NCBI GenBank assembly: GCA_963707215.1
Contig: CAVPPB010000002.1
Coordinates: 288,001 to 352,000 of the forward strand
Length of the DNA: 64,000 nucleotides
Direction: 5' to 3'
From: an uncultured Chloroflexia bacterium
Lineage (GTDB): Bacteria; Chloroflexota; Limnocylindria; Limnocylindrales; CSP1-4
Shown: piece by piece, positions 2,437 to 39,157 of the stretch
Layout: the number at the start of each line of letters is the position of its first letter
Numbering within the stretch: position 1 is the stretch's first letter
Notes under the pieces: generated by a model
The model's database searches: none
The model's input: only the letters and a program-made list of their open reading frames with translations
Told to the model about the DNA's origin: nothing
Made by a program: the position numbers and the translations under genes

Positions 2437-2511
2437 CGGCCCCGCGTCCCGCCGTCCCTTCCTGCCCCGAGCCTGTCCACTCACGAGCCTCGACGAGGAA
2501 AGGCACGCCTG

Positions 2512-4347
2512 TTGGCCATCGACCCGAACCAGGAGTTCCTCGTCCAGCCGGTCGACGCCTCCTGGCTCCAGTGCAACATCGAGTGCCAGGAAGCCTGCCC
2601 GGTGGGGACGAACTGCCGCGGCTACCTCAACCTGGCCGCCGAGGGGCGCTTCGAGGAGGGCTACATCCTCTCCCGGGAGCCGAACCCGGTCGCGGCGATG
2701 TGCTCGTACGTCTGCTCTGCCCCCTGCGAGCGAGCCTGCCGCCGCGGCGACATCGATCGGCCGCTGGCGATCCGGGCGATGAAGCGCTTCCTGGTCGAAT
2801 GGCACGAGGCGTCCGGCATCCCCGACGTCATGCCGGAGATCACGCCCCGCGACGAGCGGGTCGCCGTCATCGGCGCTGGGCCGGCTGGGCTGGCCGTCGC
2901 CCGGGAGCTCGGCGTCAAGGGCTACCAGGTCACGGTCTTCGACTCCCTCCCGTTCGGCGGCGGGACGATGCTCATCGGCGTCCCGGCGTTCCGGCTGCCG
3001 CGCGAGGCGATCGAGATGGACGTCCGCCTCGTCGAGCGGCTTGGGGTGACCTTCCGCTACAACACGACGATCGGTGCGGACGTCCCGTTCGAGGACCTCC
3101 AGCGCGATTTCGACGCCATCGCCATCACCGCCGGCGCCATGAACGCGGTCGTCCTCGACCTGCCCGGGGCCGAGCTCGAGGGCGTCCAGTACGGCGTCGA
3201 CTTCATGAAGAAGGCCAACCTGGGACAGGAGCTGACGGTCGGCAAGGACGTCGTCGTCATCGGCGGCGGCTACACCGCGATGGACTGCTCGCGGACGAGC
3301 CTCCGTCACGGTGCCGAGCGGGTGACGATCGCCTACCGGCGGACCCGGTCGGAGCTGGTGGTCGACGAGGAGGAGCTCGGCGAGACCGAGCGTGAGGGCG
3401 TCCGGATGGAGTTCCTCGCCAGCCCGGTCGAGATCCTCGGCGAGGACGGCCGGGTCACGGGTGTGAAGTTCGTCCGCAACCGGCTCGGCGAGCCGGATGC
3501 CTCGGGGCGGCGCTCGCCGGTCCCCATCGAGGGCTCCGAGTTCATCGTCCCGGCCGACACGGTCATCCCGGCCGTCTCCCAGGCGGCCGACCTGACCTTC
3601 CTGCCGGTCGAGTCGGACTTCGAGGTCGGTCGTGGCCGGGTCAAGGTCGATCCGGCGACCTACGCGACGAACGTCCGCGGCGTCTTCGCCTGTGGCGACT
3701 TCGTGACCGGCCCGACGACGCTCATCGAGGCGGCCGGGCACGGCAAGAAATGCGCCTACGCGATCGACCGTTACCTGGGCGCCCAGGCGGAGGTCGCCGT
3801 GGCCGCCAACGTCCGCATCACCAGCTCGTGGCGCCACGACATGCCCGAGTTCTACGACGTGCTGCCGCGACAGCACATCCCCATGGTCCCGCTCCAGGCT
3901 CGGATGCCCTCGACCGACCCGGAGGTCAACTTCACGACCCCGGTCGAGCTGGGCTACACGGCGACCCAGGCCGTCGCCGAGTCGACCCGCTGCCTGATGT
4001 GCAACTACAACATCTGGTTCGACCCCTTCCGCTGCGTCCTCTGCGGCGCCTGCGCGGACGTCTGCCCGGAGGGGGTCATCCACATGGTCGACATCAACCA
4101 GCTCAAGACCGAGGGCCTGCTGCCGGAGGTCGAGGAGGCCTACGGCTGGGAGAACGGCGCGGCGATGATCCTCGACGAGGAGCGCTGCATCCGCTGCGCA
4201 CTCTGCGTCAAGCGGTGCCCGTTCGACGCCATTACGATGGAGCGGTTCGAGCTGCAGGAAGTCTCGGACGACGGCCGGCTCTACAAGGAGTCGTACCGTG
4301 ACGCCCAGCTGGCCGGCTGGGCAGGCATCGCAGGAGGGGCCAGGTGA
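2512..4347 (+). CDS. GltD/NfnB/DsrL-like FAD- and NAD(P)H-dependent oxidoreductase with N-terminal Fe-S domain and C-terminal 2[4Fe-4S] ferredoxin domain
   Basis: CQEACP and CSYVCSAPCERAC Fe-S motifs; GAGPAG FAD site; GGGYTAMD and YRR NADP(H) site; C-terminal CVLCGACADVCP and CIRCALCVKRCP; stop overlaps next start (GTGA). Confidence 0.9.
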   Translation: MAIDPNQEFLVQPVDASWLQCNIECQEACPVGTNCRGYLNLAAEGRFEEGYILSREPNPVAAMCSYVCSAPCERACRRGDIDRPLAIRAMKRFLVEWHEASGIPDVMPEITPRDERVAVIGAGPAGLAVARELGVKGYQVTVFDSLPFGGGTMLIGVPAFRLPREAIEMDVRLVERLGVTFRYNTTIGADVPFEDLQRDFDAIAITAGAMNAVVLDLPGAELEGVQYGVDFMKKANLGQELTVGKDVVVIGGGYTAMDCSRTSLRHGAERVTIAYRRTRSELVVDEEELGETEREGVRMEFLASPVEILGEDGRVTGVKFVRNRLGEPDASGRRSPVPIEGSEFIVPADTVIPAVSQAADLTFLPVESDFEVGRGRVKVDPATYATNVRGVFACGDFVTGPTTLIEAAGHGKKCAYAIDRYLGAQAEVAVAANVRITSSWRHDMPEFYDVLPRQHIPMVPLQARMPSTDPEVNFTTPVELGYTATQAVAESTRCLMCNYNIWFDPFRCVLCGACADVCPEGVIHMVDINQLKTEGLLPEVEEAYGWENGAAMILDEERCIRCALCVKRCPFDAITMERFELQEVSDDGRLYKESYRDAQLAGWAGIAGGAR

Positions 4348-5072
4348 GTTTCCTCGAGCGGGTGGACCAGGGCATCCGCCGGAGCGCCGTGTGGCGCTCG
4401 TTGTTCCGCCAGCCGTACCCCAACGACGAGCGGTCGCGGGCGTACGCGGTCATGAACAACGTCTTCCTGCACATCCACCCGGTCCGGGTACGCCAGCACG
4501 CGGTGAAGTTCGCCTACACCTTCTGCCTGGGCGGGTTGTCGTTCTTCCTGTTCCTGGTCCTGACGGTGACCGGCGTCTACCTGATGTTCTACTACGTGCC
4601 GTCGGCGTCCCAGGCCTACGCGAACATCCTGGAGATCCAGAGCGAGGTGACCTTCGGGCTGCTGACCCGGAACATCCACCGCTGGGCCGCCCACCTGATG
4701 GTCTTCTTCGTCTTCCTGCACATGATGCGGGTCTTCTACCACGGGGCCTACAAGCCGCCCCGCGAGTTCAACTGGGTCGTCGGCGTCGTCCTGCTGTTCC
4801 TGACGATCATGCTGAGCTTCACCGGCTATCTCCTGCCGTGGGACCAGATCGCCTACTGGGCCATCACCATCGGCGGCAACATGGCCGGCTACGCCCCGCT
4901 CTTCAACACGCCCTCCAAGCTGCTCCTGCTGGGCAGCCTGGAGGTCAGCCAGAACACCCTGCTCCGCTTCTACGTGCTCCACATCATGGTCTTCCCGCTC
5001 GTCGCAGCCGTCTTCCTCGCGGTCCACTTCTGGCGGATCCGCAAGGACGGCGGGATCAGCGGCCCGCTGTGA
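4344..5072 (+). CDS. petB: Cytochrome b6-type subunit of split Rieske/cytochrome b complex
   Basis: FCLGG (heme ci Cys), HRWAAH..LHMMRVF, TGYLLPWDQ, H-x14-H in helix D, C-terminal GISGPL. Confidence 0.92.
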   Translation: MSFLERVDQGIRRSAVWRSLFRQPYPNDERSRAYAVMNNVFLHIHPVRVRQHAVKFAYTFCLGGLSFFLFLVLTVTGVYLMFYYVPSASQAYANILEIQSEVTFGLLTRNIHRWAAHLMVFFVFLHMMRVFYHGAYKPPREFNWVVGVVLLFLTIMLSFTGYLLPWDQIAYWAITIGGNMAGYAPLFNTPSKLLLLGSLEVSQNTLLRFYVLHIMVFPLVAAVFLAVHFWRIRKDGGISGPL

Positions 5073-5098
5073 TCGTCGCCAGGTAGCGGACGGATCCG

Positions 5099-5701
5099 AT
5101 GACCGACACCAAGTCCCCGCCCGAGCGCCGCGTCGTCCTCCCGGTCGATCCGACCAGGCGGACGGAGATCGACAAGCAGCGCGTGCCGATGGCGGCCCGC
5201 CCGTACCGGCTGCTCGCGCTCGTCAAGCAGGACGCCGTCGTCCGGGTCCAGAAGGAGCCCGACGACACGGTCATGACCTGGCCGCACCTGCTGACGATCG
5301 AGTTCCTGGCGGCGGCCATGATCAGCATCTTCCTGCTTCTCATGGGCCTCTTCATGAACGCCCCGCTCGAAGAGCTGGCGAACCCGAACGTGACGCCGGC
5401 GGTGGCCAAGGCCCCCTGGTACTTCCTGGGCCTCCAGGAGCTCCTGGCTTACTTCCACCCGACCGTCTCGGGCGTCCTGGCGCCGACGTTCGTGCTCGTG
5501 GGTGCCGCCCTGCTGCCGTACGTGGATCGGGGCAACGTGCTGGCCAACCGGCCGTCCGACCGCAAGACGGCGGTCGTGCTGTTCACCCTGCTCTGCATCC
5601 TTGGCCTGACGCTGACCTTCATCGGCGTCTTCTTCCGCGGCCCCGGCTACGCGTTCGCGATCCCATACGTGACCACGGCCGGCTTCCACTTCGCGCTGTG
5701 A
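5099..5701 (+). CDS. petD: Subunit IV of split Rieske/cytochrome b complex
   Basis: WPHLL, ANPNVTP..KAPWYFLGLQELL (PEWY-equivalent region), LPYVDR, three TM helices. Confidence 0.88.
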   Translation: MTDTKSPPERRVVLPVDPTRRTEIDKQRVPMAARPYRLLALVKQDAVVRVQKEPDDTVMTWPHLLTIEFLAAAMISIFLLLMGLFMNAPLEELANPNVTPAVAKAPWYFLGLQELLAYFHPTVSGVLAPTFVLVGAALLPYVDRGNVLANRPSDRKTAVVLFTLLCILGLTLTFIGVFFRGPGYAFAIPYVTTAGFHFAL

Positions 5702-5717
5702 GCCAACGAGACGTCCC

Positions 5718-6392
5718 ATGAGCAACTACCAGGTCGAACCAGCCAGCAAGCCCCAGGCCATCTCGAAGGAGGCCATCAAGGCGCTGCGCCAGGAGCAGGT
5801 CCAGGGCCTCTCGCGGCGCCAGATCCTGCGCGGCTCGATCGCCGGCGCGATGCTCCTCTGGATCGCCGAGGTGTCGGCCGGCTCGATCGGCTTCCTCTGG
5901 CCGAACCTGGCCGGCGGCTTCGGGGGGCGGGTCCGCATCGGTACCATCGACGACGTCAAGCTGGCCAACTCCGAGGTCCCGATCGAGGAGGGCTTCCCCG
6001 GCTACTACCCGGACGCCCGCGCCTACGTCGTCCTGGTCGACCCCGCCGTCCAGCAGTTCCTGCCCGGGACCAGCGAGGACGGCGACGGGACGGCGCTCAA
6101 CGTCCGGGGCCTCTACCAGCGCTGCCCGCATCTCGGCTGCCGGCCGAACCCGTGCGAGCGGAACTTCTGGATGGAGTGCCCCTGCCACGGCTCGCGTTTC
6201 GACCGCCTGGGCATCAAGGTCGCCGGCGAGCAGTACGGCCCGGCGCCGCGGAGCATGGACCGCTTCGCGAGCGAGGTCGACGGTGAGGGGGTCCTGACCC
6301 TCGACACCGGCCGGATCACCCTGGGGCCGCTGCCGATCGCTCTCGGCCAGCCCGGCGTCATCCCACCGAAGGCACCGACCGGATGCATCTGA
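5718..6392 (+). CDS. petC: Rieske [2Fe-2S] protein
   Basis: Tat-like SRRQILR plus TM helix; CPHLGC and CPCHGS boxes; GPAPR motif. Confidence 0.93.
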   Translation: MSNYQVEPASKPQAISKEAIKALRQEQVQGLSRRQILRGSIAGAMLLWIAEVSAGSIGFLWPNLAGGFGGRVRIGTIDDVKLANSEVPIEEGFPGYYPDARAYVVLVDPAVQQFLPGTSEDGDGTALNVRGLYQRCPHLGCRPNPCERNFWMECPCHGSRFDRLGIKVAGEQYGPAPRSMDRFASEVDGEGVLTLDTGRITLGPLPIALGQPGVIPPKAPTGCI

Positions 6393-6432
6393 CCGCCCGC
6401 CCGCCATCGACCGCCGACCTGCGAGGAGATCG

Positions 6433-7509
6433 ATGACCGATCAGCCCGGCCGCGAGCCGGAGCAGCGCCTGCCCGAGCGCCGACCGGAGGCCGAGCCGCC
6501 GAGCGCCGACCGGTTCACCGCGCCGCCTCAGGCGCACAGCTTCGAGCTGACGCCGGAGCGAGCGTCGCGCATCGTCCGGGCCTCCGGTGACTCCCGGCTC
6601 ATCGGCTTCCTCGCCGTCCTCGTCGTCGGGCTCTTCGTGATCGGCTACTACTTCTACGAGCTGGCGCCCTTCGGCCTGACCGAGAGCCGTCTGGACAGCG
6701 AGGCGGCGGCCCAGCAGGTCACCGCGGTCGAGCGGGGCTACAACATCTACCAGGCCAACTGCGCCCGCTGTCACGGCGTGGACGGCGAGGGCGGCATCGG
6801 CCCGGTCCTCAACCGCCAGGACAAGCTGTTCCAGCACCTCGACGAGGCGTACCTGCACACGATCCTGCTCGTCGGCGGGCGCTACGCCTGCGGCGACCCG
6901 AACAGCCTCATGCCCCTCTGGTCGAACGAGGGATCGCCGCCGGGACCGCTCAACTACGAGCAGATCAATGAGCTGATCGAGTTCATCCGGGCGTCCAAGG
7001 ACGAGACCTTCATCGTCCGGGATCCCGAGCTCTTCGAGCCGCTCATCGACCCCGCCACCGGCGAGCCCCGGACCTTCACCGGCTGGGTCGATCCGAACTA
7101 CACGCCGGAGCCGGGCGCGACCCCGTATCCGGATTGCTGGCAGGACGAGTTCGCGGCGCCGCCGCCCGCATCCCCGGGGGCCAGTCCCGAGCCGGGAGCG
7201 TCGGCGGCGCCATCGGAGGCGCCGGGTGACGGTGCCGTCCTCGACATCAGCGCCCAGAACATCGCCTTCGACACCGACACGCTGGAGGCTCCGGCTGACA
7301 CGGCCTTCCAGATCCGCTTCGCCAACAACGACGCCGGCATCCCCCACAACGTGGAGATCCTTGACGAGGCCCGGACGTCGATCTGGAAGGGCGACATCTT
7401 CAATGGCGTCGAGACCCGGGTCTACGACGTGCCGGCCCTGCCGGCGGGCACCTACACGTTCATCTGCACGGTGCATCCGAACATGGTGGGGACCCTCACG
7501 GTCAAGTAG
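6433..7509 (+). CDS. Membrane-anchored monoheme cytochrome c fused to a C-terminal type-1 copper cupredoxin domain
   Basis: TM helix, CARCH heme motif, distal LMPLW Met, Pro/Ala/Ser linker, then HNVEI...CTVHPNM. Confidence 0.88.
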   Translation: MTDQPGREPEQRLPERRPEAEPPSADRFTAPPQAHSFELTPERASRIVRASGDSRLIGFLAVLVVGLFVIGYYFYELAPFGLTESRLDSEAAAQQVTAVERGYNIYQANCARCHGVDGEGGIGPVLNRQDKLFQHLDEAYLHTILLVGGRYACGDPNSLMPLWSNEGSPPGPLNYEQINELIEFIRASKDETFIVRDPELFEPLIDPATGEPRTFTGWVDPNYTPEPGATPYPDCWQDEFAAPPPASPGASPEPGASAAPSEAPGDGAVLDISAQNIAFDTDTLEAPADTAFQIRFANNDAGIPHNVEILDEARTSIWKGDIFNGVETRVYDVPALPAGTYTFICTVHPNMVGTLTVK

Positions 7510-7548: not shown

Positions 7549-9021
7549 ATGGCCCAGCAGGCACTCGAGAGCGGGGCGACGCGGAAGCGGGTCTTCTTCG
7601 GCCTGCTCGACGCGGACAGCTGGTCATGGGCGGCGGTCAAGGCCGTCTTCTGGCTCATCGTCCTGATCATGATGCTCGGCTACATCCCCGACCGCGCCTA
7701 CTATTTCACGGTATTCAGCACGATCAGCATCGGGCTCGACCCGGCCCAGCCGCCGGCCAGCGCCGTCACGCCGGTCAACCTCTGCCCGGCCGAGAACGGC
7801 GACCTGCCCTGCCCCGTGCCGACCGGCGCGATGCTCCCGTGGGAGCCGTCGCCTGCCGAGGTCGCCCTGCCGGCCGGGCGGACCGACGGCGGGGTCGTCC
7901 AGCTGGGTAGCAAGCTCGTCTACGTCGGTGGGACCGACGGGGCTGGTCCCGTCGCCGACACCTACGTCGCCCGACTCGTCGACGGCAGCACCTTCGACGC
8001 CTGGGAGCCCGGGCCGGCGCTCCCGGAGCCCCGGGCCGGCGCGGCGGTCGTCGCCTTCGGCGGCTCGGCCTACGTCATCGGCGGCTCGGACGCCGGCGGC
8101 GAGCCGACGACGACGGTCTATCGGATGACGGTCGACCTCAACACGGGCGAACTCGGCGAGTGGACCCCCGTCGAGGAGCTCGCGCTGCCCGAGGCCCGGG
8201 CTCGAGCGGCCGTCGCGGTGGCCCCCGACGGCCTGATCCTCGTCGGCGGACAGACGGGCTCAGGCTCCGTGACGTCGGTCTGGAAGAGTGACCTCGATGG
8301 CGACGAGCTGGCTGCCTGGGCGCCGAACGCGGAGATGCCGGAGGCGCGCTACGACCACGGTGCGATCGTCATCGGCGACTACCTCTGGGTCTTCGGCGGC
8401 TCGGGAGCCGACGAGGCGCCGACGGCGACCGTCCTGCGCGGGACCGTGACCGTCCCCGAGGTTCCCGAGGGCTCGCCGCCCGGCGCGACCGCCGACCCGT
8501 CCTTCGTGAGCGACTGGGCGACGAACGCCGATGCGAACCTGCCGGTGGCGCGCACCAACGCGGCGACCTTCACGGCCAACGGGATCGTCTACCTGGTCGG
8601 CGGCAGCGACGGATCGGCCCCGAAGGGCGAGGTCTACTGGGGCGTGCCCGACGGCGACGGCGACATCGACTGGACGACGCTGACGGCGTCCGATCTCCCC
8701 GACCAGGGGCTGGTCGGGGCGGCCGGTGCGGTCTCGGGCTCGACGGCGTTCGTGATCGGGGGCGAGACCCAGGGCGGTGTGCTCGCGTCCTCGGCGCGGG
8801 CCAGCCTGGCGCCCGGCAACCCGTACCTCCAGGTCGGCCTCCTGGGGATCACGATCCCGGCCCTCGGGATCCAGGGCGAGATCGGCCAGCAGATCGGCTA
8901 CCTGAACGCGGCCGGGGTCGGCACGGTCAACTTCATCATCCTGCTCCTGATCGGCGTGGCCTTCGCCCATCCCGAGCGGACGAAGGGCCTGGCCCGGCGG
9001 GTCATCGGGGTCTTCCGCTAG
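7549..9021 (+). CDS. Kelch-repeat beta-propeller protein with N- and C-terminal TM helices
   Basis: Repeated YVIGG/WVFGG/YLVGG...W..LP.AR units; GGAGG SD; same strand, 39 nt after cytochrome c gene. Confidence 0.8.
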   Translation: MAQQALESGATRKRVFFGLLDADSWSWAAVKAVFWLIVLIMMLGYIPDRAYYFTVFSTISIGLDPAQPPASAVTPVNLCPAENGDLPCPVPTGAMLPWEPSPAEVALPAGRTDGGVVQLGSKLVYVGGTDGAGPVADTYVARLVDGSTFDAWEPGPALPEPRAGAAVVAFGGSAYVIGGSDAGGEPTTTVYRMTVDLNTGELGEWTPVEELALPEARARAAVAVAPDGLILVGGQTGSGSVTSVWKSDLDGDELAAWAPNAEMPEARYDHGAIVIGDYLWVFGGSGADEAPTATVLRGTVTVPEVPEGSPPGATADPSFVSDWATNADANLPVARTNAATFTANGIVYLVGGSDGSAPKGEVYWGVPDGDGDIDWTTLTASDLPDQGLVGAAGAVSGSTAFVIGGETQGGVLASSARASLAPGNPYLQVGLLGITIPALGIQGEIGQQIGYLNAAGVGTVNFIILLLIGVAFAHPERTKGLARRVIGVFR

Positions 9022-10401: not shown

Positions 10402-11403
10402 ATGGGCTTCGATCTCAGGGACCGCAGCTTCGTCAAGCTGCTTGACTACTCTCCGAAGGAGATCCGCTTCCTGCTTGACCTGGCCGCCGACCTGAAGGCC
10501 GCCAAGTACGCCGGCACCGAGCAGCGGCGGCTGCGGGGCAAGAACATCGCCCTCATCTTCGAGAAGACCTCCACTCGGACCCGGGTGGCCTTCGAGGTGG
10601 CCGCCTACGACCAGGGCGCCCACGTCACCTACCTCGGCCCGAGCGGGACCCAGATCGGCCACAAGGAGTCGATGAAGGACACTGCCCGGGTCCTCGGCCG
10701 CATCTTCGACGGCATCGAGTACCGGGGCTTCGGGCAGGGGATCGTGGAGGAGCTCGCGGCCTACGCCGGCGTCCCGGTCTGGAACGGGCTGACCGACGAA
10801 TTCCACCCGACCCAGATCCTGGCCGACGTGCTGACGATGACCGAGCACAGCGACAAGCCGCTGACGCGCATCTCGTACTGCTACCTGGGCGACGCCCGCA
10901 ACAACATGGGCAACTCGCTGCTGGTCGGCGGGGCGAAGCTGGGGATGGACGTCCGGCTCTGCGCTCCACGGGCGCTCTGGCCCCACGAGGACCTCGTCGA
11001 GACCTGTCGGGGCATCGCCGCCGAGACCGGCGCCCGGATCACCCTGACCGAGGATCCGGCCGAGGGCGTCAAGGACGTCGATTTTCTCTACACGGACGTC
11101 TGGGTCTCCATGGGCGAGGATCCGTCGGTCTGGGAGGAGCGGGTCAGGCTCCTCAAGCCGTACCAGGTCAACGCGGACCTGGTCGCCCTGTCCGGCAACC
11201 CCGGCGTCAAGTTCCTGCACTGCCTGCCGGCCTTCCACGACCGCGAGACGAAGGTCGGCGAGGAGATGTACGAGCGCTTCGGGCTCGACGGCATGGAGGT
11301 CACCAACGACGTGTTCGAGTCAGAGCGCTCGATCGTCTGGGACCAGGCCGAGAACCGGATGCACACGATCAAGGCGGTCATGGTCGCGACGCTCGGCGAC
11401 TGA
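10402..11403 (+). CDS. arcB: Ornithine carbamoyltransferase (probably catabolic)
   Basis: [28 protein letters not shown] motifs; adjacent to arcA. Confidence 0.93.
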
Positions 11404-11540
11404 GCCGATCGGCTCGCTCGACGACCGGGCCTCGTCGACGGCACGGACGGCACGACCACCGTCCCCGCCAGTGGGGCCATGGCAGGATCGGAAACGGGTC
11501 GGCTCGCTGGCCGCCCGGGCCGTTGAAGGAGCGACGTGTC

Positions 11541-12800
11541 ATGACAGGGTTCGGGGTCCACTCCGAGGTCGGCAAGCTGCGCAAGGTCATCGTCCATCGG
11601 CCGGACCTCAGCCTGAGGCGGCTCACGCCCGGCAACCACGACGACCTGCTCTTCGACGACGTCCTGTGGGTCGAGCGGGCCAAGTGGGAGCACGACCAGT
11701 TCGTCGCCCGGATGCGCGAGCGCGGTGTCGAGGTCTTCTACGTCGAGGACCTCCTGACGGAGGCGCTGGCCGAGGACGAGGTCCGGCTCCGCCTGATCGA
11801 GGTCGTGACCCGCGAGCACGTCGTGGGCCCGACCCTCGTGGAGGAGGTCGCTGCGTGTCTGGCCGGATTCCCGCCGGACGTCCTGGCCGCTCACCTCATC
11901 GGGGGCCTGACCGTCGGCGAATCGGGGCTCGACCTGGGCCGCCTTGCCGGCGGCTCACTGATCGCGGCGGCGATCGAAGACGACACGACGTTCATCCTGC
12001 CGCCCCTCCCGAACACGCTCTTCACGCGCGACTCGTCGTGCTGGATCTACGGCGGCGTCTCAGTCAACCCGATGTTCTGGCCGGCTCGTCGTCGCGAGGC
12101 GTTCAACATGGCCGCCATCTACCGCGGCCACCCGATGTTCCGCGAGGCCGACTTCGAGTTCTGGTACCCGACGATGGGGGAGGACGAGCGGGTCCGGGCC
12201 GAGGACTTCGGCATGGCCTCATTGGAGGGCGGCGACGTCGAGGTCCTGGGACGTGGCACGGTGCTCATCGGCCTCTCCGAGCGGACCACCGGTCGGATGA
12301 TCGAGGAGATCGCACTGGCCCTCTTCGCCAGGGAGGCGGCCCAGCGCGTCATCGCCTGTGTGATGACCAGGGACCGGGCCCACATGCATCTCGACACCGT
12401 GTTCACCCTCCTTGACCTGGACAAGGCGACGGCCTATCCCAAGGTCGTCGAGGGGATCCGGGCGATCAGTCTTCGGCCGGGCGAGCGGCCCGGTACCCTC
12501 GACGTCCGGCCCGAGAGGGACCTCCTATCGGCGGTCACGGATGCCCTCGGCGTGCCGAAGCTGCACGTGGTCGAGACCGGCGGTGACGCCTACCAGCAGG
12601 CCCGTGAGCAATGGGACGACGGCAACAACGTCGTCGCCCTCGAGCCTGGCGTCGTCGTCGCTTACGAGCGGAACACGTTCACCATCTCGAAGATGCGCGA
12701 TGCCGGGGTCGAGGTCATCCCGATCGAGGGCTTCGAGCTGGGCAAGGGCCGCGGCGGTGGGCACTGCATGACCTGCCCGATCAGCCGCGACGCTGTCTGA
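11541..12800 (+). CDS. arcA: Arginine deiminase
   Basis: VHSEVGKL, LLFDD, PNTLFTRD, LEGGD, MHLDTV, EQWDDGNN, GRGGGHCMTCP. Confidence 0.95.
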   Translation: MTGFGVHSEVGKLRKVIVHRPDLSLRRLTPGNHDDLLFDDVLWVERAKWEHDQFVARMRERGVEVFYVEDLLTEALAEDEVRLRLIEVVTREHVVGPTLVEEVAACLAGFPPDVLAAHLIGGLTVGESGLDLGRLAGGSLIAAAIEDDTTFILPPLPNTLFTRDSSCWIYGGVSVNPMFWPARRREAFNMAAIYRGHPMFREADFEFWYPTMGEDERVRAEDFGMASLEGGDVEVLGRGTVLIGLSERTTGRMIEEIALALFAREAAQRVIACVMTRDRAHMHLDTVFTLLDLDKATAYPKVVEGIRAISLRPGERPGTLDVRPERDLLSAVTDALGVPKLHVVETGGDAYQQAREQWDDGNNVVALEPGVVVAYERNTFTISKMRDAGVEVIPIEGFELGKGRGGGHCMTCPISRDAV

Positions 12801-12872: not shown

Positions 12873-13748
12873 TCAGAACGGCGTCGGGATGTACTTGAGC
12901 GGCAGGTCGGGCGAGGTGTGGCCAGCGCTCACCCTGCGCTTTGGCAGCTCCACCTCGCGAGGCTCGAGCGGCTCGTAGGGGACCTGGCTCAGCAGGTGGC
13001 TGATGATGTTGAGCCGCCCCCGCTTCTTGTCGTCGGTGCGGGCGATCCACCAGGGCGCCCACGGTGTGTCGGTCGCCGCCAGCATGGCGTCCCGGGCCCG
13101 CGAGTAGTCGTCCCAGCGGCCGTACGACTTGAGGTCCATGTCGGTCAACTTCCAGACCTTGCGGGGGTCGTTGATGCGGCCCTCGAGGCGGCGGGTCTGC
13201 TCCTCGGGGCTGACCTCCAGCCAGTACTTGAGGAGGATGATCCCGGACTCGACCATCGCCCTCTCGACGGCCGGTGCCTGCTCGAGGAACTTCTCGGTCT
13301 CCTCGGGAGTGCAGAAGCCCATGACCCGCTCGACCCCGGCCCGGTTGTACCAGCTGCGGTCGAAGATCACGACCTCGCCGCCCGCTGGGAAGTGCGGCAG
13401 GTAGCGCTGGACGTACATCTGGGACTTCTCGCGCTCGGTCGGGGCGGACAGGGCGACGACCTTGAAGACCCGCGGGCTGACCCGCTCGGTGATCCGCTTG
13501 ATGGTGCCGCCCTTGCCGGCGGTGTCCCGGCCCTCGAAGACGATGCAGACCTTGGCCCCGGTCGCCTTGACCCACTCCTGCATCGCCACGAGCTCGCCGT
13601 GGAGGCGGGTCATCTCCCGCTCGTAGTCCTTGGTCTTCATCTTCGGCGGGGGCCCGCCCGGGGACGGCTCGGATTCGCCGCCCGGGACGTCGCGGGGCGC
13701 CTGGTCCTCATGCGGCTTCCGACCCTTCTTGTCCCTCTTCTTGGTCAC
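12873..13748 (-). CDS. ppk2: Polyphosphate kinase 2
   Basis: FEGRDTAGKGG Walker A, FDRSWYNRAGVERVMGF, DDKKRGRLN; GGAGG SD before GTG at 13748. Confidence 0.93.
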   Translation of the reverse strand: MTKKRDKKGRKPHEDQAPRDVPGGESEPSPGGPPPKMKTKDYEREMTRLHGELVAMQEWVKATGAKVCIVFEGRDTAGKGGTIKRITERVSPRVFKVVALSAPTEREKSQMYVQRYLPHFPAGGEVVIFDRSWYNRAGVERVMGFCTPEETEKFLEQAPAVERAMVESGIILLKYWLEVSPEEQTRRLEGRINDPRKVWKLTDMDLKSYGRWDDYSRARDAMLAATDTPWAPWWIARTDDKKRGRLNIISHLLSQVPYEPLEPREVELPKRRVSAGHTSPDLPLKYIPTPF

Positions 13749-13889
13749 GTTCTCGTCCTCCACTCGGCTCGTCGATATCGGATCCGGCTGCGGCACAGCC
13801 AGACACCTGGACGTCCGGGAGCTGGCTCGGCGGCGCCGGCTATGCCGGTCCGCCGCCGCTGCGCGGCTCCGGGACTTCGGTCCGTAGCA

Positions 13890-16652
13890 CTACGCAGTGA
13901 CGGCCACCGCCTCCGGCTCGGCCGCGACCGTCTTCTCCACCGGTTCGACCTGCCAGACGAGCTTGCGGATCTCGGAGACCACGATCACCAGCAGGCCGAC
14001 GACGATGCAGACAGCCCACTGCTCGATGGTCAGGCTGGTCGTGCTCAGCAACCGAGTGAGGACGCCCAGCTCGGTCATCAGCAGGATCGTCGCCATCGAG
14101 GCCAGGCTGGCGAGGATGAACGGGCGGTCCGCCAGGACGCCGAGGCTGAAGGCCGAGTTGCGCTCGTCCTTGGTCGCCAGCGAGAAGGCCAGGTTGCCGA
14201 TCGAGAAGGTGACCATGCCCATGGTCCGGGCGATCGTGTCGTCGTAGGTCTGGCTCGCCCAGTAGATGACGGCCAGCGAGCCCCCGCCCATGACCAGCCC
14301 CATGATGGCGAGCCAGATGAGCATCGGACGGTCGAGGAGCGCTTCCTTGGAAGGCCTCGGCAGGCGCTCCATCAGCCCTGTGGCCGGTTTGCCGAAGCCG
14401 AGGGCGATGGCCTGGAAGACCTGGATGGTGAAGTTCATGAACAGGGTCTGGGCCGGGTAGAACGGGACGCCGCCCAGGACGTTCAGGAGGCTGGAGCCCA
14501 GGAACGTCGCGATGTAGCCGATCAGGACGGCGACCTGGAACCGGATGTACTTCTTGAGGTTGTCGTAGAGGCCGCGCCCCAGCTCGACCGCCTTCACGAT
14601 CGTCGCGAAGTTGTCGTCGGTCAGGATCATGTTGGCGGCTTCCTTGGAGACCTCCGTGCCGGTGATCCCCATGGCCACGCCGATGTCGGCGCGCTTCAGC
14701 GCCGGGGCGTCGTTCACGCCGTCGCCGGTCATGGCCACGATGTGGTCCTTCTTGCGCAGGATGTCGACCAGGTGGACCTTGTCCTCGGGAGCCACCCGGG
14801 CGATGACACCGATGCCGTCGATCTCGCGCATGGCCTCGTCGTCGCTCATCGCCCGGAACTCGGCGCCGGTGATGGCCCGGCCCCGGATGCCGAGCTCGCT
14901 GGCGATCGCCCCCGCCGTCACGGCATGGTCGCCAGTGATCATCCGGACCTGGATGCCGGCGGCGTGGGCCTCCTTGATCGATGCCTTGGCCTCCGTCCGC
15001 GGCGGGTCGACGATGCCGACGAGGGCCAGCAGCGTCATCCCGTCGAGGAGGGGCAGGAGGTCGGCGTCCGGGTCGAAGGTGGACGGGTCGAAGTCCTTGC
15101 GGCCGGTCGCCATCACCCGGAGACCCTTGGCGCCCAGGCGCTCGTTCTCGTCCATGTAGCGCTGGCGGAGGTCGTCGTCCACTAGCCGGGTGCCGGACAG
15201 GTCGGGGGTGACTACCTCCGTGCCACGGGCCAGGAGCTGGTCGGGTGCGCCCTTCACGAAGCAGCGGACGACCTCGTTGCCGGACTCGTCCGTCATCCGG
15301 TGGAAGGTGGCCATCATCTTGTACTCGGCGTCGAACGGCAGCGTCGCGACCCGCGGGTAGGTCTCCCGGGTGGCGACGGTGCTGACCCCGCCCTTCTCGG
15401 CGAGGACCACCAGCGCTCCCTCCGTCGGGTCGCCGATCAGCTCGCCGTCCTTGACGACGGCGTCCGAGGCCAGGACGCAGGGCAGGAGGAACGGGTCGAG
15501 CGGGACGTCGACATCGCCGCCGACCCTGCTGATGGTGCCCTCGAACCCATAGCCCGTGCCCGAGACCGTGTGGCGCCGACCGGGGATCGTCAGCTCGGTG
15601 GCGGTCATCTGGTTGAGGGTCAGGGTGCCGGTCTTGTCCGAGTTGATGGCCGACGTCGACCCGAGGGTCTCGACGGAGCGCAGCTGCTTGACGATGGCGT
15701 GGGCCTTGGCGAGGGTCTGCGTGCCGTACGAGAGGATCGTGGTGATGACGGCCGGCAGGCCCGTCGGGATGGCCGAGACGGCGAAGGCGATGGCGGTGAC
15801 GAACAGGACGTCGAACGGCTGGTCGTACCGGAAGTAGCCGATCGCGATGGAGGCGATGAGGGCGACACCGGCGATGATCAGCAGCTGCTGGGTCAGGACG
15901 TTGATCTGGCGGGTGAGCGGGGTCTCCTCCTCGGGGGCCTCCTGGAGCATCCCGGAGATGTGGCCGACCTCGGTGCTCATGCCCGTCGCGGTGACCAGCA
16001 TCTCCCCGGAGCCGCGGGTGACGTTCGTGTTCATGAAGGCCATGTCGACGCGGTCGCCCAGCGCGGCATCGGCGGCGACCGGAGCGACCTGCTTCGATGC
16101 CGGCAGGCTCTCGCCGGTCAGGGCGGCCTCCTCGAGCTCGACGGTCGCGGCCTTGATGAGCCTTCCGTCAGCGGTGATGACGTCCCCGGCCTCGAAGGCG
16201 ACGATGTCGCCGGGGACCAGCTCCTCGGCCGGGATCTCCACCAACTCGCCGTCGCGACGGACCCGCGCCTTGACGATCATCATCTGCTGGAGGGCGGCCA
16301 CGGCGGCCGCGGCCTTGCCCTCCTGGCTAAGGCCGAGGTAGGCGTTGAAGACCGTCAGCACGATGAGCATCACGCCGGTCGAGACCTGGCCGACCGGCCA
16401 GATGCTGGCGATGCCGGCGACCAGCAGGACGATCTGCATCAGGTCCGCGTACTGGCGCAGGAAGGCCCGCCAGCGCGGCTCGGTCTCCTGCTCGGCGAAC
16501 TTGTTGGGTCCATAGGTCGAGCGTCGCGACGTGACCTCGACGGCGCTCAGGCCCCGCGCAGGATCGACACCCTGCGCTGCGAGCGCCTCCTCCACGGACA
16601 GGGCATGCCAGGCGGTCGTGGGCGCCGCAGGGGCCCCCGGTTGCTCGCTCAT
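13890..16652 (-). CDS. P-type ATPase, type II-like cation transporter with atypical ion-binding residues
   Basis: LTGES, DKTGTLT, GDPTE, KGAPD, MITGD, TGDGVNDAPALK motifs; GGGAG SD before ATG 16652. Confidence 0.92.
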   Translation of the reverse strand: MSEQPGAPAAPTTAWHALSVEEALAAQGVDPARGLSAVEVTSRRSTYGPNKFAEQETEPRWRAFLRQYADLMQIVLLVAGIASIWPVGQVSTGVMLIVLTVFNAYLGLSQEGKAAAAVAALQQMMIVKARVRRDGELVEIPAEELVPGDIVAFEAGDVITADGRLIKAATVELEEAALTGESLPASKQVAPVAADAALGDRVDMAFMNTNVTRGSGEMLVTATGMSTEVGHISGMLQEAPEEETPLTRQINVLTQQLLIIAGVALIASIAIGYFRYDQPFDVLFVTAIAFAVSAIPTGLPAVITTILSYGTQTLAKAHAIVKQLRSVETLGSTSAINSDKTGTLTLNQMTATELTIPGRRHTVSGTGYGFEGTISRVGGDVDVPLDPFLLPCVLASDAVVKDGELIGDPTEGALVVLAEKGGVSTVATRETYPRVATLPFDAEYKMMATFHRMTDESGNEVVRCFVKGAPDQLLARGTEVVTPDLSGTRLVDDDLRQRYMDENERLGAKGLRVMATGRKDFDPSTFDPDADLLPLLDGMTLLALVGIVDPPRTEAKASIKEAHAAGIQVRMITGDHAVTAGAIASELGIRGRAITGAEFRAMSDDEAMREIDGIGVIARVAPEDKVHLVDILRKKDHIVAMTGDGVNDAPALKRADIGVAMGITGTEVSKEAANMILTDDNFATIVKAVELGRGLYDNLKKYIRFQVAVLIGYIATFLGSSLLNVLGGVPFYPAQTLFMNFTIQVFQAIALGFGKPATGLMERLPRPSKEALLDRPMLIWLAIMGLVMGGGSLAVIYWASQTYDDTIARTMGMVTFSIGNLAFSLATKDERNSAFSLGVLADRPFILASLASMATILLMTELGVLTRLLSTTSLTIEQWAVCIVVGLLVIVVSEIRKLVWQVEPVEKTVAAEPEAVAVTA

Positions 16653-16911
16653 CGTCTCCCTCGCTTCATGCGCACCGGCCCCGGCCCCGGGATCGGTCTC
16701 GAGCCAGTGTCCGAAGATGCTACCCCACGGGTCCGGGCCGACTCCGGGCCATGAGGCCCGGACGCCTGTCGCCACTAGACCCGATGGCGCGACGACGCGC
16801 ATCCTCCCTTTGGGGGGGGTATGGGACCGGCCCTGGACGCCGCGTGCGCTCGGGCGGGGCGCGACGCATCCGTCGGTGGGTCGGTCGGCGACCGAACCCG
16901 CCGATCCCCGC

Positions 16912-17715
16912 TCAGCCCAGTGAGAGCCCCTCGCCGTCGCCGAGTGGTCCGACGGGAGGGGCACCGGCCGGCAGCCAGCGGACCGATCCTGGCCCGTGGA
17001 CCCGCCAGGTGCGGCTGCGGTCCCCATCGCGTCCCTCCATCCGCTCCGTCGCTTCGACGACGGGCTCGCGGATGATGCCGGTCGCCTCGTCGAGGCCCAG
17101 CCAGCCCGGTGCATCCCGGCCGGCCGCCGTGGCTACGGAGGCTGCCCAGATGACCTGCCGGCCGCCGTCGAAGTGGGGGACCACGGCCACGCCGGGGATC
17201 AGGCCGAGGGCCCGACGCGGTCCCTCCTGCGTCCACGTCCAGCCGCCCAGGACCATGGCACCGGCACTGGCCCCGGCGACCGCGGCCCCTCGAGCGTGGG
17301 CAGCCAGGATGGCCCTCCACGCGAGGCCCTCCTCGAGGACGTCGAGGAGGTGGCTCGGGTCCCCGCCGACGAGGTAGACGACGTCGGCCCCAGCCAGCCG
17401 GCCGGCCGGGCCGCTCCGATCGGCATCCTCCCGCTCGAGGACGCCGATCCCCTCGACGCGCACGGGGATGCCGGTCTCGCCGGCCGCCTGCTCGAAGGCG
17501 GTCCGTCCGTGGGCGACGGCCAGGTCCGGTCGGCTCCGCGCGGCGGCCGTCGGCACGATCGCGACCCCCAGTCCGTCGGCGTCCCCGGCCGTGCCCACAC
17601 AGGCCCGGTCGCGGGGCCCGCGCGAGGCTGAGGCTGCCTTGAGCAGCGCCCCCAGGAAGCGCCCGTCGTCAGGTCCGAACTCGCCGCCGCCGTGCAGGCC
17701 GATCGGCCCGCTCAC
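16912..17715 (-). CDS. Peptidase S51 / cyanophycinase-like protein
   Basis: LHGGGE N-terminus, IVPTAA, YLVGGDP, GASAGAM nucleophile motif, VPHFD, GLDEATG. Confidence 0.8.
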   Translation of the reverse strand: MSGPIGLHGGGEFGPDDGRFLGALLKAASASRGPRDRACVGTAGDADGLGVAIVPTAAARSRPDLAVAHGRTAFEQAAGETGIPVRVEGIGVLEREDADRSGPAGRLAGADVVYLVGGDPSHLLDVLEEGLAWRAILAAHARGAAVAGASAGAMVLGGWTWTQEGPRRALGLIPGVAVVPHFDGGRQVIWAASVATAAGRDAPGWLGLDEATGIIREPVVEATERMEGRDGDRSRTWRVHGPGSVRWLPAGAPPVGPLGDGEGLSLG

Positions 17716-35484: not shown

Positions 35485-36621
35485 CTAGCCGCCCGCCGTC
35501 ATCGTCCCGACCATGTTCGGATGGACGGTACAGATGAACGGGTAGGTCCCGGCGGGCAGGGCCGGGACCTCGTAGACCCGGGTCTCGACGCCGTTGAAGA
35601 TGTCGCCGAGGAAGACGGTCGCACCACTCTCGTCCCTGATCTCGACGTTGTGGGGCACGCCGGCGTCGAGATTGACGAAGGCGATGGTGAAGGGCCGGTC
35701 CGCGGGGATCGCCACGTCGGTCTCGAGGAACGCGATGCCCTGGGCCGTGATCGTCACGTCGGCCTGGGGGATCTCGGGGGCGGCGGAGGCTCCCGGTTCG
35801 GCCGAGGCGCCGGGCGCACCCGAGGCGCCGGGCGACGGCGATGCCCCGCCGCCGCCGTCGCCGGCGCTGGCGGGCGGCAGGACGCCGGCGTTGATGGCGA
35901 CGGCGACCACCACCAGCACCGCCGCGGCCGCGAACGAGCCGGTCGGGAACCGTGGGTCGGGACCGTTGTCGAGGTGGCCGGTCCGGTCGGCCTCCACGGT
36001 CGCGTTGTACTCCCGGCGGGCGTCGCGCAGCCACCCCAGCAGCGCCCAGACGACGACGATGAGGCCGGCGACGAGTAGCGCGCCGCCGAAGACGACCCCC
36101 AGGAAGAGGACCGCGGCGGACAGGGCGACGAGGAACGGCCGGTACGACGGCCCGGGGACGTGGACGCCGGGCGGCGGGCCGGACGGCACCACAGCCGGCA
36201 GCTGGGCTGCGCTCGCCTCGTGCTCGTCGGGCGCCGCGTGCTCGTAGTCGGTCATGGCTTCGCGGAGCCAGTACAGGAGCGTCAGGGCCAGCACGCTCAG
36301 GCCGACGATGAGGACCCAGCCGCCCAGGACGAGACCGGCGAACGCGAGGAACGCCCCGAACGCGGCCAGGAACGGCGCCAGCGAGGGCCCGGGCATGTGG
36401 ATCCCCGGCGGCGGCGCCGATGGTCTTCGCTGGTAGCCGCGCCGGGTGGGACCGGCCGACATCCAGCGCCGGGCGAACCAGGCCAGGAAGGCGACGACCA
36501 GGACGAGCAGGATGACCGGGATGAGCGACACCAGCTCGCCCCAGTCGGGCATCACGAAGACCTGGGTCAGCTCGAGGATCGACTCCCAGATCCCCTGGAT
36601 GAACTCCCAGACAGGCTCCAC
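35485..36621 (-). CDS. CtaF (oxidase subunit IV)-like membrane protein with duplicated helical hairpin and C-terminal cupredoxin
   Basis: Two HxPGPS..PF..A-TM-TM-WLR(E/D)A..(D/E)Y repeats; C-terminal HNVEI...CTVHPNM; last structural gene of cox operon. Confidence 0.7.
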   Translation of the reverse strand: MEPVWEFIQGIWESILELTQVFVMPDWGELVSLIPVILLVLVVAFLAWFARRWMSAGPTRRGYQRRPSAPPPGIHMPGPSLAPFLAAFGAFLAFAGLVLGGWVLIVGLSVLALTLLYWLREAMTDYEHAAPDEHEASAAQLPAVVPSGPPPGVHVPGPSYRPFLVALSAAVLFLGVVFGGALLVAGLIVVVWALLGWLRDARREYNATVEADRTGHLDNGPDPRFPTGSFAAAAVLVVVAVAINAGVLPPASAGDGGGGASPSPGASGAPGASAEPGASAAPEIPQADVTITAQGIAFLETDVAIPADRPFTIAFVNLDAGVPHNVEIRDESGATVFLGDIFNGVETRVYEVPALPAGTYPFICTVHPNMVGTMTAGG

Positions 36622-36640
36622 GTCGGGTCCGGCCCTGGAC

Positions 36641-37488: not shown

Positions 37489-37521
37489 GTCAGATGCTCC
37501 TCCGTCGGTCGTTCGCGCGGG

Positions 37522-39144: not shown

Positions 39145-39157
39145 CGCGGAGACTCCC

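What the first reader, a model, noticed from the sequence alone, without database searches (positions are those of the whole stretch)
2512..7509. NAD(P)H flavo-Fe-S oxidoreductase translationally coupled to a b6f-type Rieske/cytochrome b complex
Seen: a 611-aa protein with N-terminal Fe-S, FAD, NADPH-type (YRR) and C-terminal 2[4Fe-4S] domains heads the operon, and its stop overlaps the cyt b6 start. Cyt b6 keeps the heme ci Cys. Known: NfnB-family proteins perform flavin-based bifurcation; NAD(P) oxidoreductase genes accompany Rieske/cyt b operons in anammox bacteria; FNR associates with b6f. Inference: in this aerobe a cytoplasmic module exchanges electrons between NADPH/ferredoxin and the heme ci/Qi site, potentially combining flavin- and quinone-based bifurcation.
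Basis: partly seen in the sequence, partly recalled or inferred. Interest (0 to 1): 0.78.

Follow-up and report, generated by a model that had tools for sequence, protein, structure and literature searches.

The report
NADPH flavoprotein fused onto complex III operon
A soil and freshwater bacterial class (Limnocylindria) always places an NADPH-binding iron-sulfur flavoprotein gene directly in front of its cytochrome b6-type respiratory complex genes, the arrangement already described for anammox bacteria and other b6-type complexes, whose function is still unproven.

Summary
On the + strand a 611-aa NfnB/GltD-like flavoprotein (two N-terminal [4Fe-4S] sites, FAD, NADPH site, C-terminal 2x[4Fe-4S]) ends in a GTGA overlap with cytochrome b6. 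Subunit IV, Rieske, a cytochrome c-cupredoxin fusion and a Kelch membrane protein follow. The organism is a Limnocylindria (Chloroflexota).

The linkage is class-wide. The 4-nt overlap is kept in 74 of 80 close loci. In all four sampled families the two genes are adjacent wherever contigs allow.

Orthologous b6 operons of other Chloroflexota classes lack the gene; there its closest homologs stand alone.

The kind is known: anammox Rieske/cyt b complexes with an NAD(P) oxidoreductase, and the reported co-occurrence of such proteins with "subfamily G"/APWY-type short cytochromes b.

- The haem ci Cys and the LHxHP histidines also occur in operons without the gene.
- In the closest solved homolog (NfnA of NfnABC) the FAD ends a linear Fe-S wire, so it does not bifurcate.

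My reading is an n-side NADPH module wired to the low-potential haems and Qi site. Direction is open. The complex prediction gave no verdict. This is a new member of a known kind, of moderate interest.

The parts
2495..2503 (+). Shine-Dalgarno-like GAGGAAAGG, 8 nt before the TTG start of nox
   Evidence: Sequence read.
2512..4347 (+). nox: 611-aa NfnB/GltD-like NADPH flavo-Fe-S protein. It has two N-terminal [4Fe-4S] sites (C21, C25, C29, C35, C64, C68, C72, C76, plus K91), FAD GxGxxG (121-126), an NADPH site (G251-253, Y275-R276-R277), an invariant R493-C494-x2-C497, and a C-terminal 2x[4Fe-4S] domain (C508, 511, 514, 518; C559, 562, 565, 569).
   Evidence: Pfam. NCBIfam PRK12771 scores 426 bits, below its cut-off of 516. 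PDB hits. The residue-by-residue alignment to 9bov_A is ungapped over 20-100, so C29, C68, C72 and K91 match Cys108, Cys147, Cys151 and Lys170 of the A7 cluster. Invariant columns.
4332..4347 (+). Coupling junction: AGGAGG (4332-4337) inside the nox 3' end, with the GTG start (4344) overlapping the TGA stop (4345-4347)
   Evidence: The overlap is kept in 74 of 80 relatives and in families f2 and f3.
4344..5072 (+). Cytochrome b6-type subunit (242 aa) with the CxGG haem ci/cn Cys61 and an N-terminal L42-H43-I-H45-P46 motif
   Evidence: Pfam PF00033 at 1.6e-45. NF040969 scores 295.6 bits against a cut-off of 290. Invariant columns.
5099..5701 (+). Subunit IV (200 aa) with the Qo motif A105-P-W-Y108
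   Evidence: Pfam PF00032. KAPWYF is found in 95 of 101 subunit IV orthologs. Invariant columns.
5718..6392 (+). Rieske [2Fe-2S] protein (224 aa) with a twin-arginine anchor and CPHLGC...CPCHGSRF
   Evidence: Pfam PF00355; motif.
6433..7509 (+). Membrane-anchored monohaem cytochrome c fused to a type-1 cupredoxin (358 aa), the high-potential branch
   Evidence: Pfam Cytochrom_C at 99-187 and Cupredoxin_1 at 265-357. The cupredoxin is 58-64% identical to domains fused to the oxidase subunits at about 35.5 and 39.2 kb.
7549..9021 (+). Kelch-repeat membrane protein (490 aa), the last conserved gene of the operon in families f1 and f2; role unknown
   Evidence: Pfam Kelch. It is syntenic in 64 of 80 loci; the other 16 end earlier. 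No match was found in the f3 or f4 loci.

Best explanation
The six genes encode an APWY-type (b6c-like, menaquinol-type) Rieske/cytochrome b complex that carries an extra cytoplasmic subunit. That subunit, Nox, binds NADPH at an FAD. It passes single electrons along a linear wire of four [4Fe-4S] clusters, two N-terminal and two C-terminal. The wire leads to the n-side haems (bH/ci) and the Qi pocket of cytochrome b6.

On the p side, Rieske, cytochrome c and cupredoxin deliver electrons to the aa3 oxidase encoded 30 kb away. That oxidase carries homologous cupredoxin domains.

The net direction I think most likely in this aerobe is NADPH oxidation. Nox would supply the second electron at centre N, acting as a built-in non-pumping NADPH dehydrogenase. 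The complex would then work as an NADPH:cytochrome c/cupredoxin oxidoreductase with ordinary Q-cycle proton yield.

Shown here: domain content, cofactor ligands, gene coupling, class-wide synteny and subfamily relationships. Inferred: physical docking, the electron path to the haems, and the direction.
For: 1. The gene structure suggests one translational unit. There is a GTGA overlap with an internal AGGAGG. The overlap is kept in 74 of 80 close loci and in families f2 and f3, with a 3-nt gap in f4.

2. The linkage is class-wide. Searches give identical tallies for cyt b6 and nox: f1 16/23, f2 4/4, f3 16/16, f4 2/2. By my reading of the two coordinate tables, the genes are adjacent in 37 of these 38 genomes. 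In the other (G124) they lie at two contig ends. The same 7 f1 genomes lack both genes.

3. Nox (about 89% identity) is as conserved as cyt b6 (about 89%). It is more conserved than Rieske (about 68%), cyt c-cupredoxin (about 55%) and Kelch (about 48%) across the same loci.

4. An independent minimal unit exists. In L107 (family f78) a nox of the sister clade is followed 79 nt later by a stand-alone cyt b6. No subunit IV or Rieske is present and the next gene is a response regulator. This points to cyt b6 itself as the partner. With no Qo site, downhill NAD(P)H-to-quinone transfer looks like the simplest chemistry there (my inference). L112 links a more distant nox to an unsplit cytochrome b.

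5. Cofactor ligands match the NADPH-oxidising NfnA of 9BOV, including the Cys3Lys cluster next to FAD and the YRRTR motif.

6. Outside the class, 44 of 45 genomes with a full-length nox-subfamily gene also hold the APWY-type cyt b6 (my reading; G038 is flagged unpublished; kin are not independent).

7. Literature. [quoted passage not shown] AlphaFold3 models of the anammox complexes trace four clusters from FAD to the n-side haems (PMC12954380, passages and section 3.3).

8. Contigs from soil RNA libraries, 85-99% alike, cover nox through subunit IV. One (X3, record 21, 4225-4442) bridges the junction. This is weak evidence: contigs do not show a transcript, and DNA can be present in such libraries.
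Against: No direct evidence of binding exists.

In 32 of 40 sampled cyt b6 loci of the phylum the orthologous b6-subunit IV-Rieske-cyt c operon works without an adjacent nox. In 15 of 15 sampled loci of other classes the closest nox homologs (36-44% identity) are stand-alone genes with unrelated neighbours. Nox-type proteins can therefore exist unlinked and may act as soluble enzymes.

I found no b6, subunit IV or Rieske feature specific to nox-linked operons. LHxHP, CxGG, APWY and CPCHGS are all general in the phylum.

One close locus (L066) loses the cyt b6 match after 29 codons although 2.4 kb follow. In another (L013) only residues from about 105 onward match.

On direction: the genome has a complex I, so a non-pumping NADPH route is not obviously needed. 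The authors of the anammox work argue for the opposite direction. Kao and Hunte associate the APWY motif with reverse operation (passages of PMC4122944).
Confidence: 0.45

Rival explanations
1. Anammox-type use. Quinol oxidation at Qo is bifurcated. The high-potential electron goes via Rieske, cyt c and cupredoxin to O2. The low-potential electron goes via bL, bH/ci and the four clusters to FAD and reduces NADP+. The complex would then be an oxygen-driven NADPH generator.
For: The gene set matches Kuste4569-4574 and Kustd1480-1485, for which this mechanism was proposed and found energetically plausible (PMC12954380, passages). The APWY Qo motif has been linked to unusual or reverse operation (PMC4122944, passages). 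The Rieske carries the Ser of CPCHGS; that this Ser tends to raise the potential is recalled, not tested. Complex I is present for ordinary NADH oxidation.
Against: The same APWY and CPCHGS features occur in all sampled Chloroflexota operons without nox. The two-gene nox-cyt b6 unit in L107 has no Qo site, so no bifurcation could drive NADP+ reduction there. Haem potentials are unknown. A PntB transhydrogenase gene exists, although it is read in four frame pieces.
Confidence: 0.28
2. Nox is a soluble NADPH:ferredoxin (or other acceptor) oxidoreductase. It is merely co-transcribed with the complex, for example to match reductant supply to respiration, and does not dock to it.
For: Closest homologs in other classes are stand-alone genes with no membrane partner nearby in 15 of 15 loci. 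The architecture is widespread: 91 of 150 representative homologs cover residues 30 or earlier to 570 or later. No fusion to cytochrome b was found among the 150 representatives.
Against: The 4-nt overlap is conserved across a whole class. The two genes are lost together in 7 genomes. There are independent nox-cyt b pairs (L107, L112). The literature reports such oxidoreductase-containing cyt b complexes in Kuenenia (passage citing de Almeida 2016, which I did not see).
Confidence: 0.15
3. One reading: the Nox FAD itself bifurcates (NADPH to ferredoxin plus haem ci), stacked on quinone-based bifurcation.
For: Nox is homologous to the bifurcating NfnB/NfnL (4ylf_B at 289 bits, 5jca_L at 266 bits).
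Against: Better-scoring solved homologs (NfnA of NfnABC, StnA) use the module as a terminal NADPH site on a linear wire. The operon has no NfnA/S-like [2Fe-2S]-FAD partner or ferredoxin gene. GltD has the same fold and, as I recall, does not bifurcate.
Confidence: 0.04

Closest known systems
Anammox Rieske/cytochrome b complexes with an NAD(P) oxidoreductase subunit (Kuenenia Kuste4569-4574, Kustd1480-1485)
   Same: Both have a b6-like four-helix cytochrome b with the haem cn motif, a separate subunit IV, a Rieske protein, and an operon-encoded cytoplasmic FAD/NAD(P) protein with four Cys clusters. Both have a His at position 43 of cytochrome b (PMC12954380, compared).
   Different: Here the host is an aerobic Chloroflexota. 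The high-potential subunit is a monohaem c-cupredoxin fusion, not a hexa- or octahaem cytochrome or an HAO-like protein. Subunit IV is 200 aa, against five helices reported for anammox. The gene order has nox first. I could not fetch the anammox sequences, so direct orthology is untested.
'Subfamily G' short cytochromes b (Dibrova et al. 2013/2017) = APWY clade (Kao and Hunte 2014)
   Same: Short cytochrome b with CxGG, the APWY Qo motif, and the reported co-occurrence with large NAD(P)-binding Fe-S oxidoreductases. Chloroflexi are listed in the APWY clade.
   Different: Those papers do not describe Limnocylindria or this operon in the passages I read. That subfamily G and the APWY clade are the same group is my inference.
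NfnA subunit of Bfu-type NfnABC / StnA (PDB 9BOV, 9N5U, 8OH5)
   Same: Best solved homologs: 369, 364 and 316 bits. The NfnB-like module matches, with the Cys3Lys cluster, FAD and YRRTR NADPH site.
   Different: Nox lacks the N-terminal [2Fe-2S] and the formate-dehydrogenase-like domain, and it has no BfuB/C partners in the operon. Its neighbour is a membrane cytochrome.
Cyanobacterial/chloroplast b6f with bound FNR
   Same: The idea is the same: an NADP(H) flavoenzyme on the n side of a haem-ci-containing complex (Zhang et al. 2001, as cited in PMC5600118).
   Different: By recall, FNR is an unrelated fold without Fe-S clusters and is not operon-encoded. No cytochrome f or small Pet subunits were seen here.
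Geobacter ExtP/ExtQ (NCBIfam NF040969/NF040970)
   Same: Cyt b6 scores 295.6 bits against the ExtP equivalog, just over its cut-off of 290.
   Different: Subunit IV scores 53.7 bits against a cut-off of 150 for ExtQ. No Ext neighbours were seen. The name would be an over-annotation.

Membership tests
NfnB/GltD-type NADPH flavo-Fe-S oxidoreductase module | N-terminal domain binding two [4Fe-4S] clusters | tested here: met
   Fer4_20 at 2.9e-16. Eight Cys plus K91 align without gaps to the 9BOV ligands. C29, C68, C72 and C76 are invariant in 60 sequences.
NfnB/GltD-type NADPH flavo-Fe-S oxidoreductase module | FAD and NAD(P)H Rossmann motifs with the YRR NADPH signature | tested here: met
   Pyr_redox_2 at 3.2e-28. 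G121, G123, G126, G251 and R265 are invariant. YRRTR aligns to the same motif in NADPH-oxidising NfnA. Cofactor preference itself was not assayed.
Flavin-based electron-bifurcating NfnSL (NfnAB) | Small-subunit partner ([2Fe-2S] + FAD, NfnA/S) giving a second electron path from the FAD | tested here: not met
   No such gene is in the operon or its flanks. The own-genome paralogs sit in other contexts.
Rieske/cyt b complex with NAD(P) oxidoreductase (anammox type) | Oxidoreductase gene inside the operon of a split b6-type cytochrome b, subunit IV and Rieske | tested here: met
Rieske/cyt b complex with NAD(P) oxidoreductase (anammox type) | Multihaem (hexa- or octahaem) cytochrome c subunit | tested here: not met
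   A single cytochrome c domain plus a cupredoxin.
Rieske/cyt b complex with NAD(P) oxidoreductase (anammox type) | Physical presence of the oxidoreductase in the membrane complex | not testable with these tools
   Needs purification or complexome profiling.
APWY clade / subfamily G cytochrome b | Short cytochrome b with CxGG, and subunit IV with the APWY Qo motif | tested here: met
   C61-L-G-G. K-A-P-W-Y-F is invariant and found in 95 of 101 orthologs.
Photosynthetic cytochrome b6f | Cytochrome f (PetA) and small subunits PetG/L/M/N | tested here: not met
   Pfam and NCBIfam of the operon proteins show no cytochrome f. Small subunits were not searched for specifically.
ExtP (NF040969, selenite/tellurite operon cytochrome b) | Score over the cut-off and the Ext operon context (ExtQ etc.) | tested here: inconclusive
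   ExtP scores 295.6 against 290. ExtQ scores 53.7 against 150, and no other Ext families hit the neighbours.

The most novel reading that the evidence does not exclude
Limnocylindria run an oxygen-linked version of the anammox proposal, or Mitchell's original 'donor d' Q cycle. Complex III would be hard-wired to the NADP(H) pool. Either quinol oxidation by O2 pays for NADPH synthesis, or NADPH supplies the second centre-N electron on every turnover. The same genome also carries an NfnA-like NADPH module in the NuoG position of complex I. Together these would define an NADPH-centred respiratory chain in a globally abundant soil and freshwater class.
Probability: 0.2. Interest if true: 0.85.

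Novelty: new member of a known kind. Interest (0 to 1): 0.45.

Why it matters
The role of NAD(P)-oxidoreductase subunits on Rieske/cytochrome b complexes is unresolved. So far it has been argued mainly from anammox bacteria, which are slow-growing and have a special cell compartment.

This work shows the same module as a strictly conserved, translationally coupled first gene of the aerobic complex III operon of a whole Chloroflexota class. Close relatives offer natural 'minus-module' controls. Minimal nox-cyt b6 pairs also exist. Together these give a comparative framework and a simpler redox context (menaquinol to O2) in which to test direction and mechanism.

It also warns against automatic names such as 'formate dehydrogenase beta subunit', 'glutamate synthase small subunit' and 'ExtP' for these genes.

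Tried and rejected
1. Complex prediction was run with 2x cyt b6, 1x subunit IV and Nox residues 440-611, using my own alignments A2, A3 and A1. ipSAE was 0.26 and 0.13, under the mark of 0.32. The result is no verdict. The design was forced by the 1000-residue limit and left out the second subunit IV, Rieske and all cofactors.

2. The search for related loci on genome contigs returned only Limnocylindria at 87-96% identity.

3. The search for homologous proteins listed only near-identical proteins.

4. The listing of cluster members gave few names: Nitrospinota, Alphaproteobacteria/Rhodospirillaceae and Thermomicrobiales MAG proteins in sister clades, with unknown context.

5. I looked for nox-specific marks in the membrane subunits. 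LHxHP (the proposed ligand of a 'novel haem b' in anammox models), the CxGG Cys, the Rieske CPCHGS box and APWY are all equally present without nox. They were rejected as markers.

6. I looked for Rosetta-stone fusions of nox with cytochrome b among 150 representatives and found none.

7. The argument from absence of a transhydrogenase was dropped, because PntB is present, in four frame pieces.

8. RNA-library contigs had only small word shares (0.05-0.08) and were short contigs of relatives. They cannot show a transcript or rank expression.

Dibrova 2013 (PMC3839093) is not held. Three literature calls failed on term syntax and were re-sent corrected.

10. The Nitrospina paper (PMC3578206, passages) describes a b6-type operon with an octahaem cytochrome but no oxidoreductase subunit in the passages shown.


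Full report
**What is there.** The window is G000:C2:288001-352000, from a 3.26-Mb, 5-contig, about 85% complete genome. Its nearest public relatives are MAGs labelled Limnocylindrales/Limnocylindria, Chloroflexota. On the + strand lie six tightly packed, high-GC3 genes.

- nox, 2512-4347 (611 aa)
- cytochrome b6, 4344-5072 (242 aa)
- subunit IV, 5099-5701 (200 aa)
- Rieske, 5718-6392 (224 aa)
- a membrane-anchored cytochrome c-cupredoxin fusion, 6433-7509 (358 aa)
- a Kelch-repeat membrane protein, 7549-9021 (490 aa)

The nox TGA overlaps the GTG start of cyt b6 (GTGA), and AGGAGG lies 7 nt upstream. Cyt b6 has the CxGG cysteine (C61).

**Conservation of the linkage.**

- In 80 loci at 87-96% nox identity, cyt b6 follows nox in 78. 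The other two end 61 nt or less after nox.
- All six genes are in the same order in 64 of the 80. The other 16 stop at a locus end, except L066, where the b6 match ends after 29 codons although 2.4 kb follow. I did not follow that up.
- The 4-nt overlap is kept in 74 of 80. Three loci abut directly. In one (L013) only the distal part of cyt b6 matches.
- Over 401 Chloroflexota genomes, cyt b6 and nox give identical tallies in the class: f1 16/23, f2 4/4, f3 16/16, f4 2/2.
- Reading the two coordinate tables side by side, the genes are adjacent in 37 of these 38 genomes. In G124 they lie at two contig ends.
- The same seven f1 genomes (genera g5 and g6, 91-95% complete) lack both.
- These tallies include genomes flagged unpublished (G038, G227 and others). 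No fetched locus comes from them.

**Outside the class.**

- I fetched 40 regions around cyt b6 matches from about 30 families.
- nox was adjacent only in the four Limnocylindria loci (L087, L088, L120, L089) and in two others, L107 and L112.
- L107 (family f78) has nox plus a stand-alone cyt b6, then a response regulator.
- L112 (family f13) has a more distant nox, an unsplit 532-aa cytochrome b without the CxGG Cys, a 165-aa ORF and a cytochrome c.
- Thirty-two loci carry b6, subunit IV, Rieske and cyt c without nox. Two (L113, L114) are orphan second copies of b6.
- Many of those other families do hold a full-length nox homolog elsewhere in the genome. All 15 such loci that I fetched (36-44% identity by tblastn) have no cytochrome b within about 7 kb, and their neighbours are unrelated and variable.
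- In trees, the Limnocylindria nox form one clade (SH-like support 98-99).
- Its sister clade (99) contains the L107 pair directly beside 13 of the 15 unlinked homologs. It also contains proteins that sources name as Nitrospinota, Alphaproteobacteria and Thermomicrobiales MAG proteins.
- Linked and unlinked forms therefore interleave within one subfamily. Either linkage is old and was lost, or it arose at least twice.
- By my reading, 44 of 45 non-class genomes with a full-length subfamily member also have the APWY-type cyt b6. Related genomes are not independent.

**What Nox is.**

- The best solved relatives are NfnA of the Bfu-type NfnABC (9bov_A, 369 bits; 9n5u_A, 364 bits, covering residues 20-567 including the C-terminal ferredoxin domain) and 8oh5_C (316 bits).
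- The classical NfnB/NfnL (289 and 266 bits) and GltD (235 bits) score lower.
- The HMMER alignment to 9bov_A is ungapped over residues 20-100. C29, C68, C72 and K91 therefore match Cys108, Cys147, Cys151 and Lys170, the unusual Cys3Lys ligands of the cluster next to FAD. YRRTR is shared.
- For that enzyme the authors state that NADPH binds beside the FAD. [quoted passage not shown]
- Across 60 homologs, R493-C494-x2-C497 and the eight Cys of the C-terminal dicluster domain are invariant or nearly so.
- I therefore read Nox as a plain NADPH dehydrogenase/reductase head with a four-cluster wire, not a bifurcating flavoprotein.

**What the membrane part is.**

- Subunit IV carries APWY (KAPWYF in 95 of 101 orthologs). 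This places the complex in the APWY clade, which lists Chloroflexi, Planctomycetes, delta-Proteobacteria and others, and for which no member had been characterised (PMC4122944, passages).
- The N-terminal LHxHP motif (H43, H45) corresponds in position number to His43 of Kuste4571. That residue is the proposed ligand of a new interfacial haem b in AlphaFold3 models (PMC12954380, section 3.3).
- That motif, the CxGG Cys and the Rieske CPCHGS box occur regardless of nox.
- The same window holds an aa3-type oxidase operon on the - strand (35485-40915). Its COX2 and its subunit IV-like protein are each fused to a cupredoxin that is 58-64% identical to the one on the cytochrome c subunit.
- This supports an aerobic high-potential branch running Rieske, haem c, copper, oxidase.
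- The genome also has a second Rieske/cyt b locus with an unsplit PEWY cytochrome b and a multihaem cytochrome c.

**What is known.** The kind is in print. Dibrova et al. [quoted passage not shown] They state that in some planctomycetes the genes are in the bc operons, that such complexes are expressed at high levels in Kuenenia (citing de Almeida 2016), and that gene proximity is seen 'in many other cases'. Hauser et al. 2025 review the proposal of NAD(P)H generation by bifurcation. I did not see Kartal 2011/2013, Dibrova 2013 or de Almeida 2016 themselves. Term searches of two Limnocylindria-focused papers found no mention of complex III, Rieske, cytochrome b or NADPH in this sense. Supplements were not opened.

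**Mechanism and rivals.**

- Association with cyt b6 is, in my judgement, likely (about 0.75). The grounds are coupling, class-wide synteny, co-loss, high constraint and the independent minimal pair.
- Direction is open. I favour NADPH oxidation feeding centre N (0.45 for the whole statement).
  - The L107-type unit has no Qo site to pay for the uphill reaction.
  - The context is an ordinary aerobic chain.
- The anammox-style NADPH-generating mode is second (0.28).
- Mere co-transcription of a soluble enzyme is third (0.15).
- Double bifurcation is last (0.04).
- The one complex-prediction job gave no verdict and is listed only under Tried and rejected.

**Verdict.** The feature is real and strongly conserved. 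It is a new member of a known but mechanistically unresolved kind, and of moderate interest.

Noticed in passing
L129:7691-10315 (G000:C3, about 1706690-1709314), within the nuo operon L129:1487-14855: An 874-aa NfnA/StnA-like protein sits in the NuoG position of the complex I operon, after NuoA, B, C, D, H, E and F. Its domains are an N-terminal [2Fe-2S], an NfnB-like FAD/NADPH module and 2x[4Fe-4S]. Best PDB hits are 9bov_A (561 bits) and 8oh5_C (480 bits). A complex I carrying an NADPH module may deserve its own study.
   Followed up: partly
window 35485-40915 (-): An aa3-type oxidase operon. COX2 (585 aa) and a subunit IV-like protein (378 aa) each carry a C-terminal cupredoxin domain that is 58-64% identical to the cupredoxin of the cytochrome c subunit at 6433-7509. 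This suggests a copper relay or supercomplex.
   Followed up: partly
L127:8255-11314 (G000:C1, about 856254-859313): A second Rieske/cyt b locus: Rieske (159 aa, CPCHDGRF), an unsplit cytochrome b (365 aa, PEWY, no CxGG Cys) and a 490-aa multihaem cytochrome c, followed by a GAF histidine kinase.
   Followed up: partly
L113:7998-8726 (G349:C3) and L114:7998-8726 (G333:C3): Orphan second copies of cyt b6 (86-87% identical) with no nox, subunit IV or Rieske nearby. In L113 the copy lies next to VKOR and a PCuAC copper chaperone.
   Followed up: partly
window 4344-5072: Cyt b6 passes the NCBIfam equivalog cut-off for 'selenite/tellurite reduction operon cytochrome ExtP' (295.6 against 290) without any Ext context, so there is a risk of automatic misnaming. 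Source names for nox homologs ('formate dehydrogenase beta/major subunit') look equally misleading.
   Followed up: partly
cyt b6 residues 42-46 (window about 4467-4481) and 40 related loci: The LHxHP motif is invariant in 41 Chloroflexota b6 sequences, whether or not nox is linked. Its His43 matches, by number, the proposed ligand of a 'novel haem b' in anammox AlphaFold3 models. If that haem is real, it is not specific to oxidoreductase-bearing complexes.
   Followed up: partly
G000:C2:124625-125995 (-): PntB (proton-translocating transhydrogenase beta) matches in four pieces in different frames. The cause could be frameshifts, assembly errors or a pseudogene.
   Followed up: no
window 5718-6392: The Rieske box II reads CPCHGSRF. 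In 60 of 62 close relatives the same box reads CPCHGSRY.
   Followed up: no
L066 (about 7919 onward) and L013 (7833-8146): These are two close relatives where the cyt b6 match is incomplete despite available sequence. L066 stops after 29 codons. L013 matches only from about residue 105.
   Followed up: no
window 10402-12800 (+), 12873-17114 (-): Downstream genes: ornithine carbamoyltransferase and arginine deiminase (ADI pathway), polyphosphate kinase 2, and a 1074-aa P-type cation ATPase.
   Followed up: no
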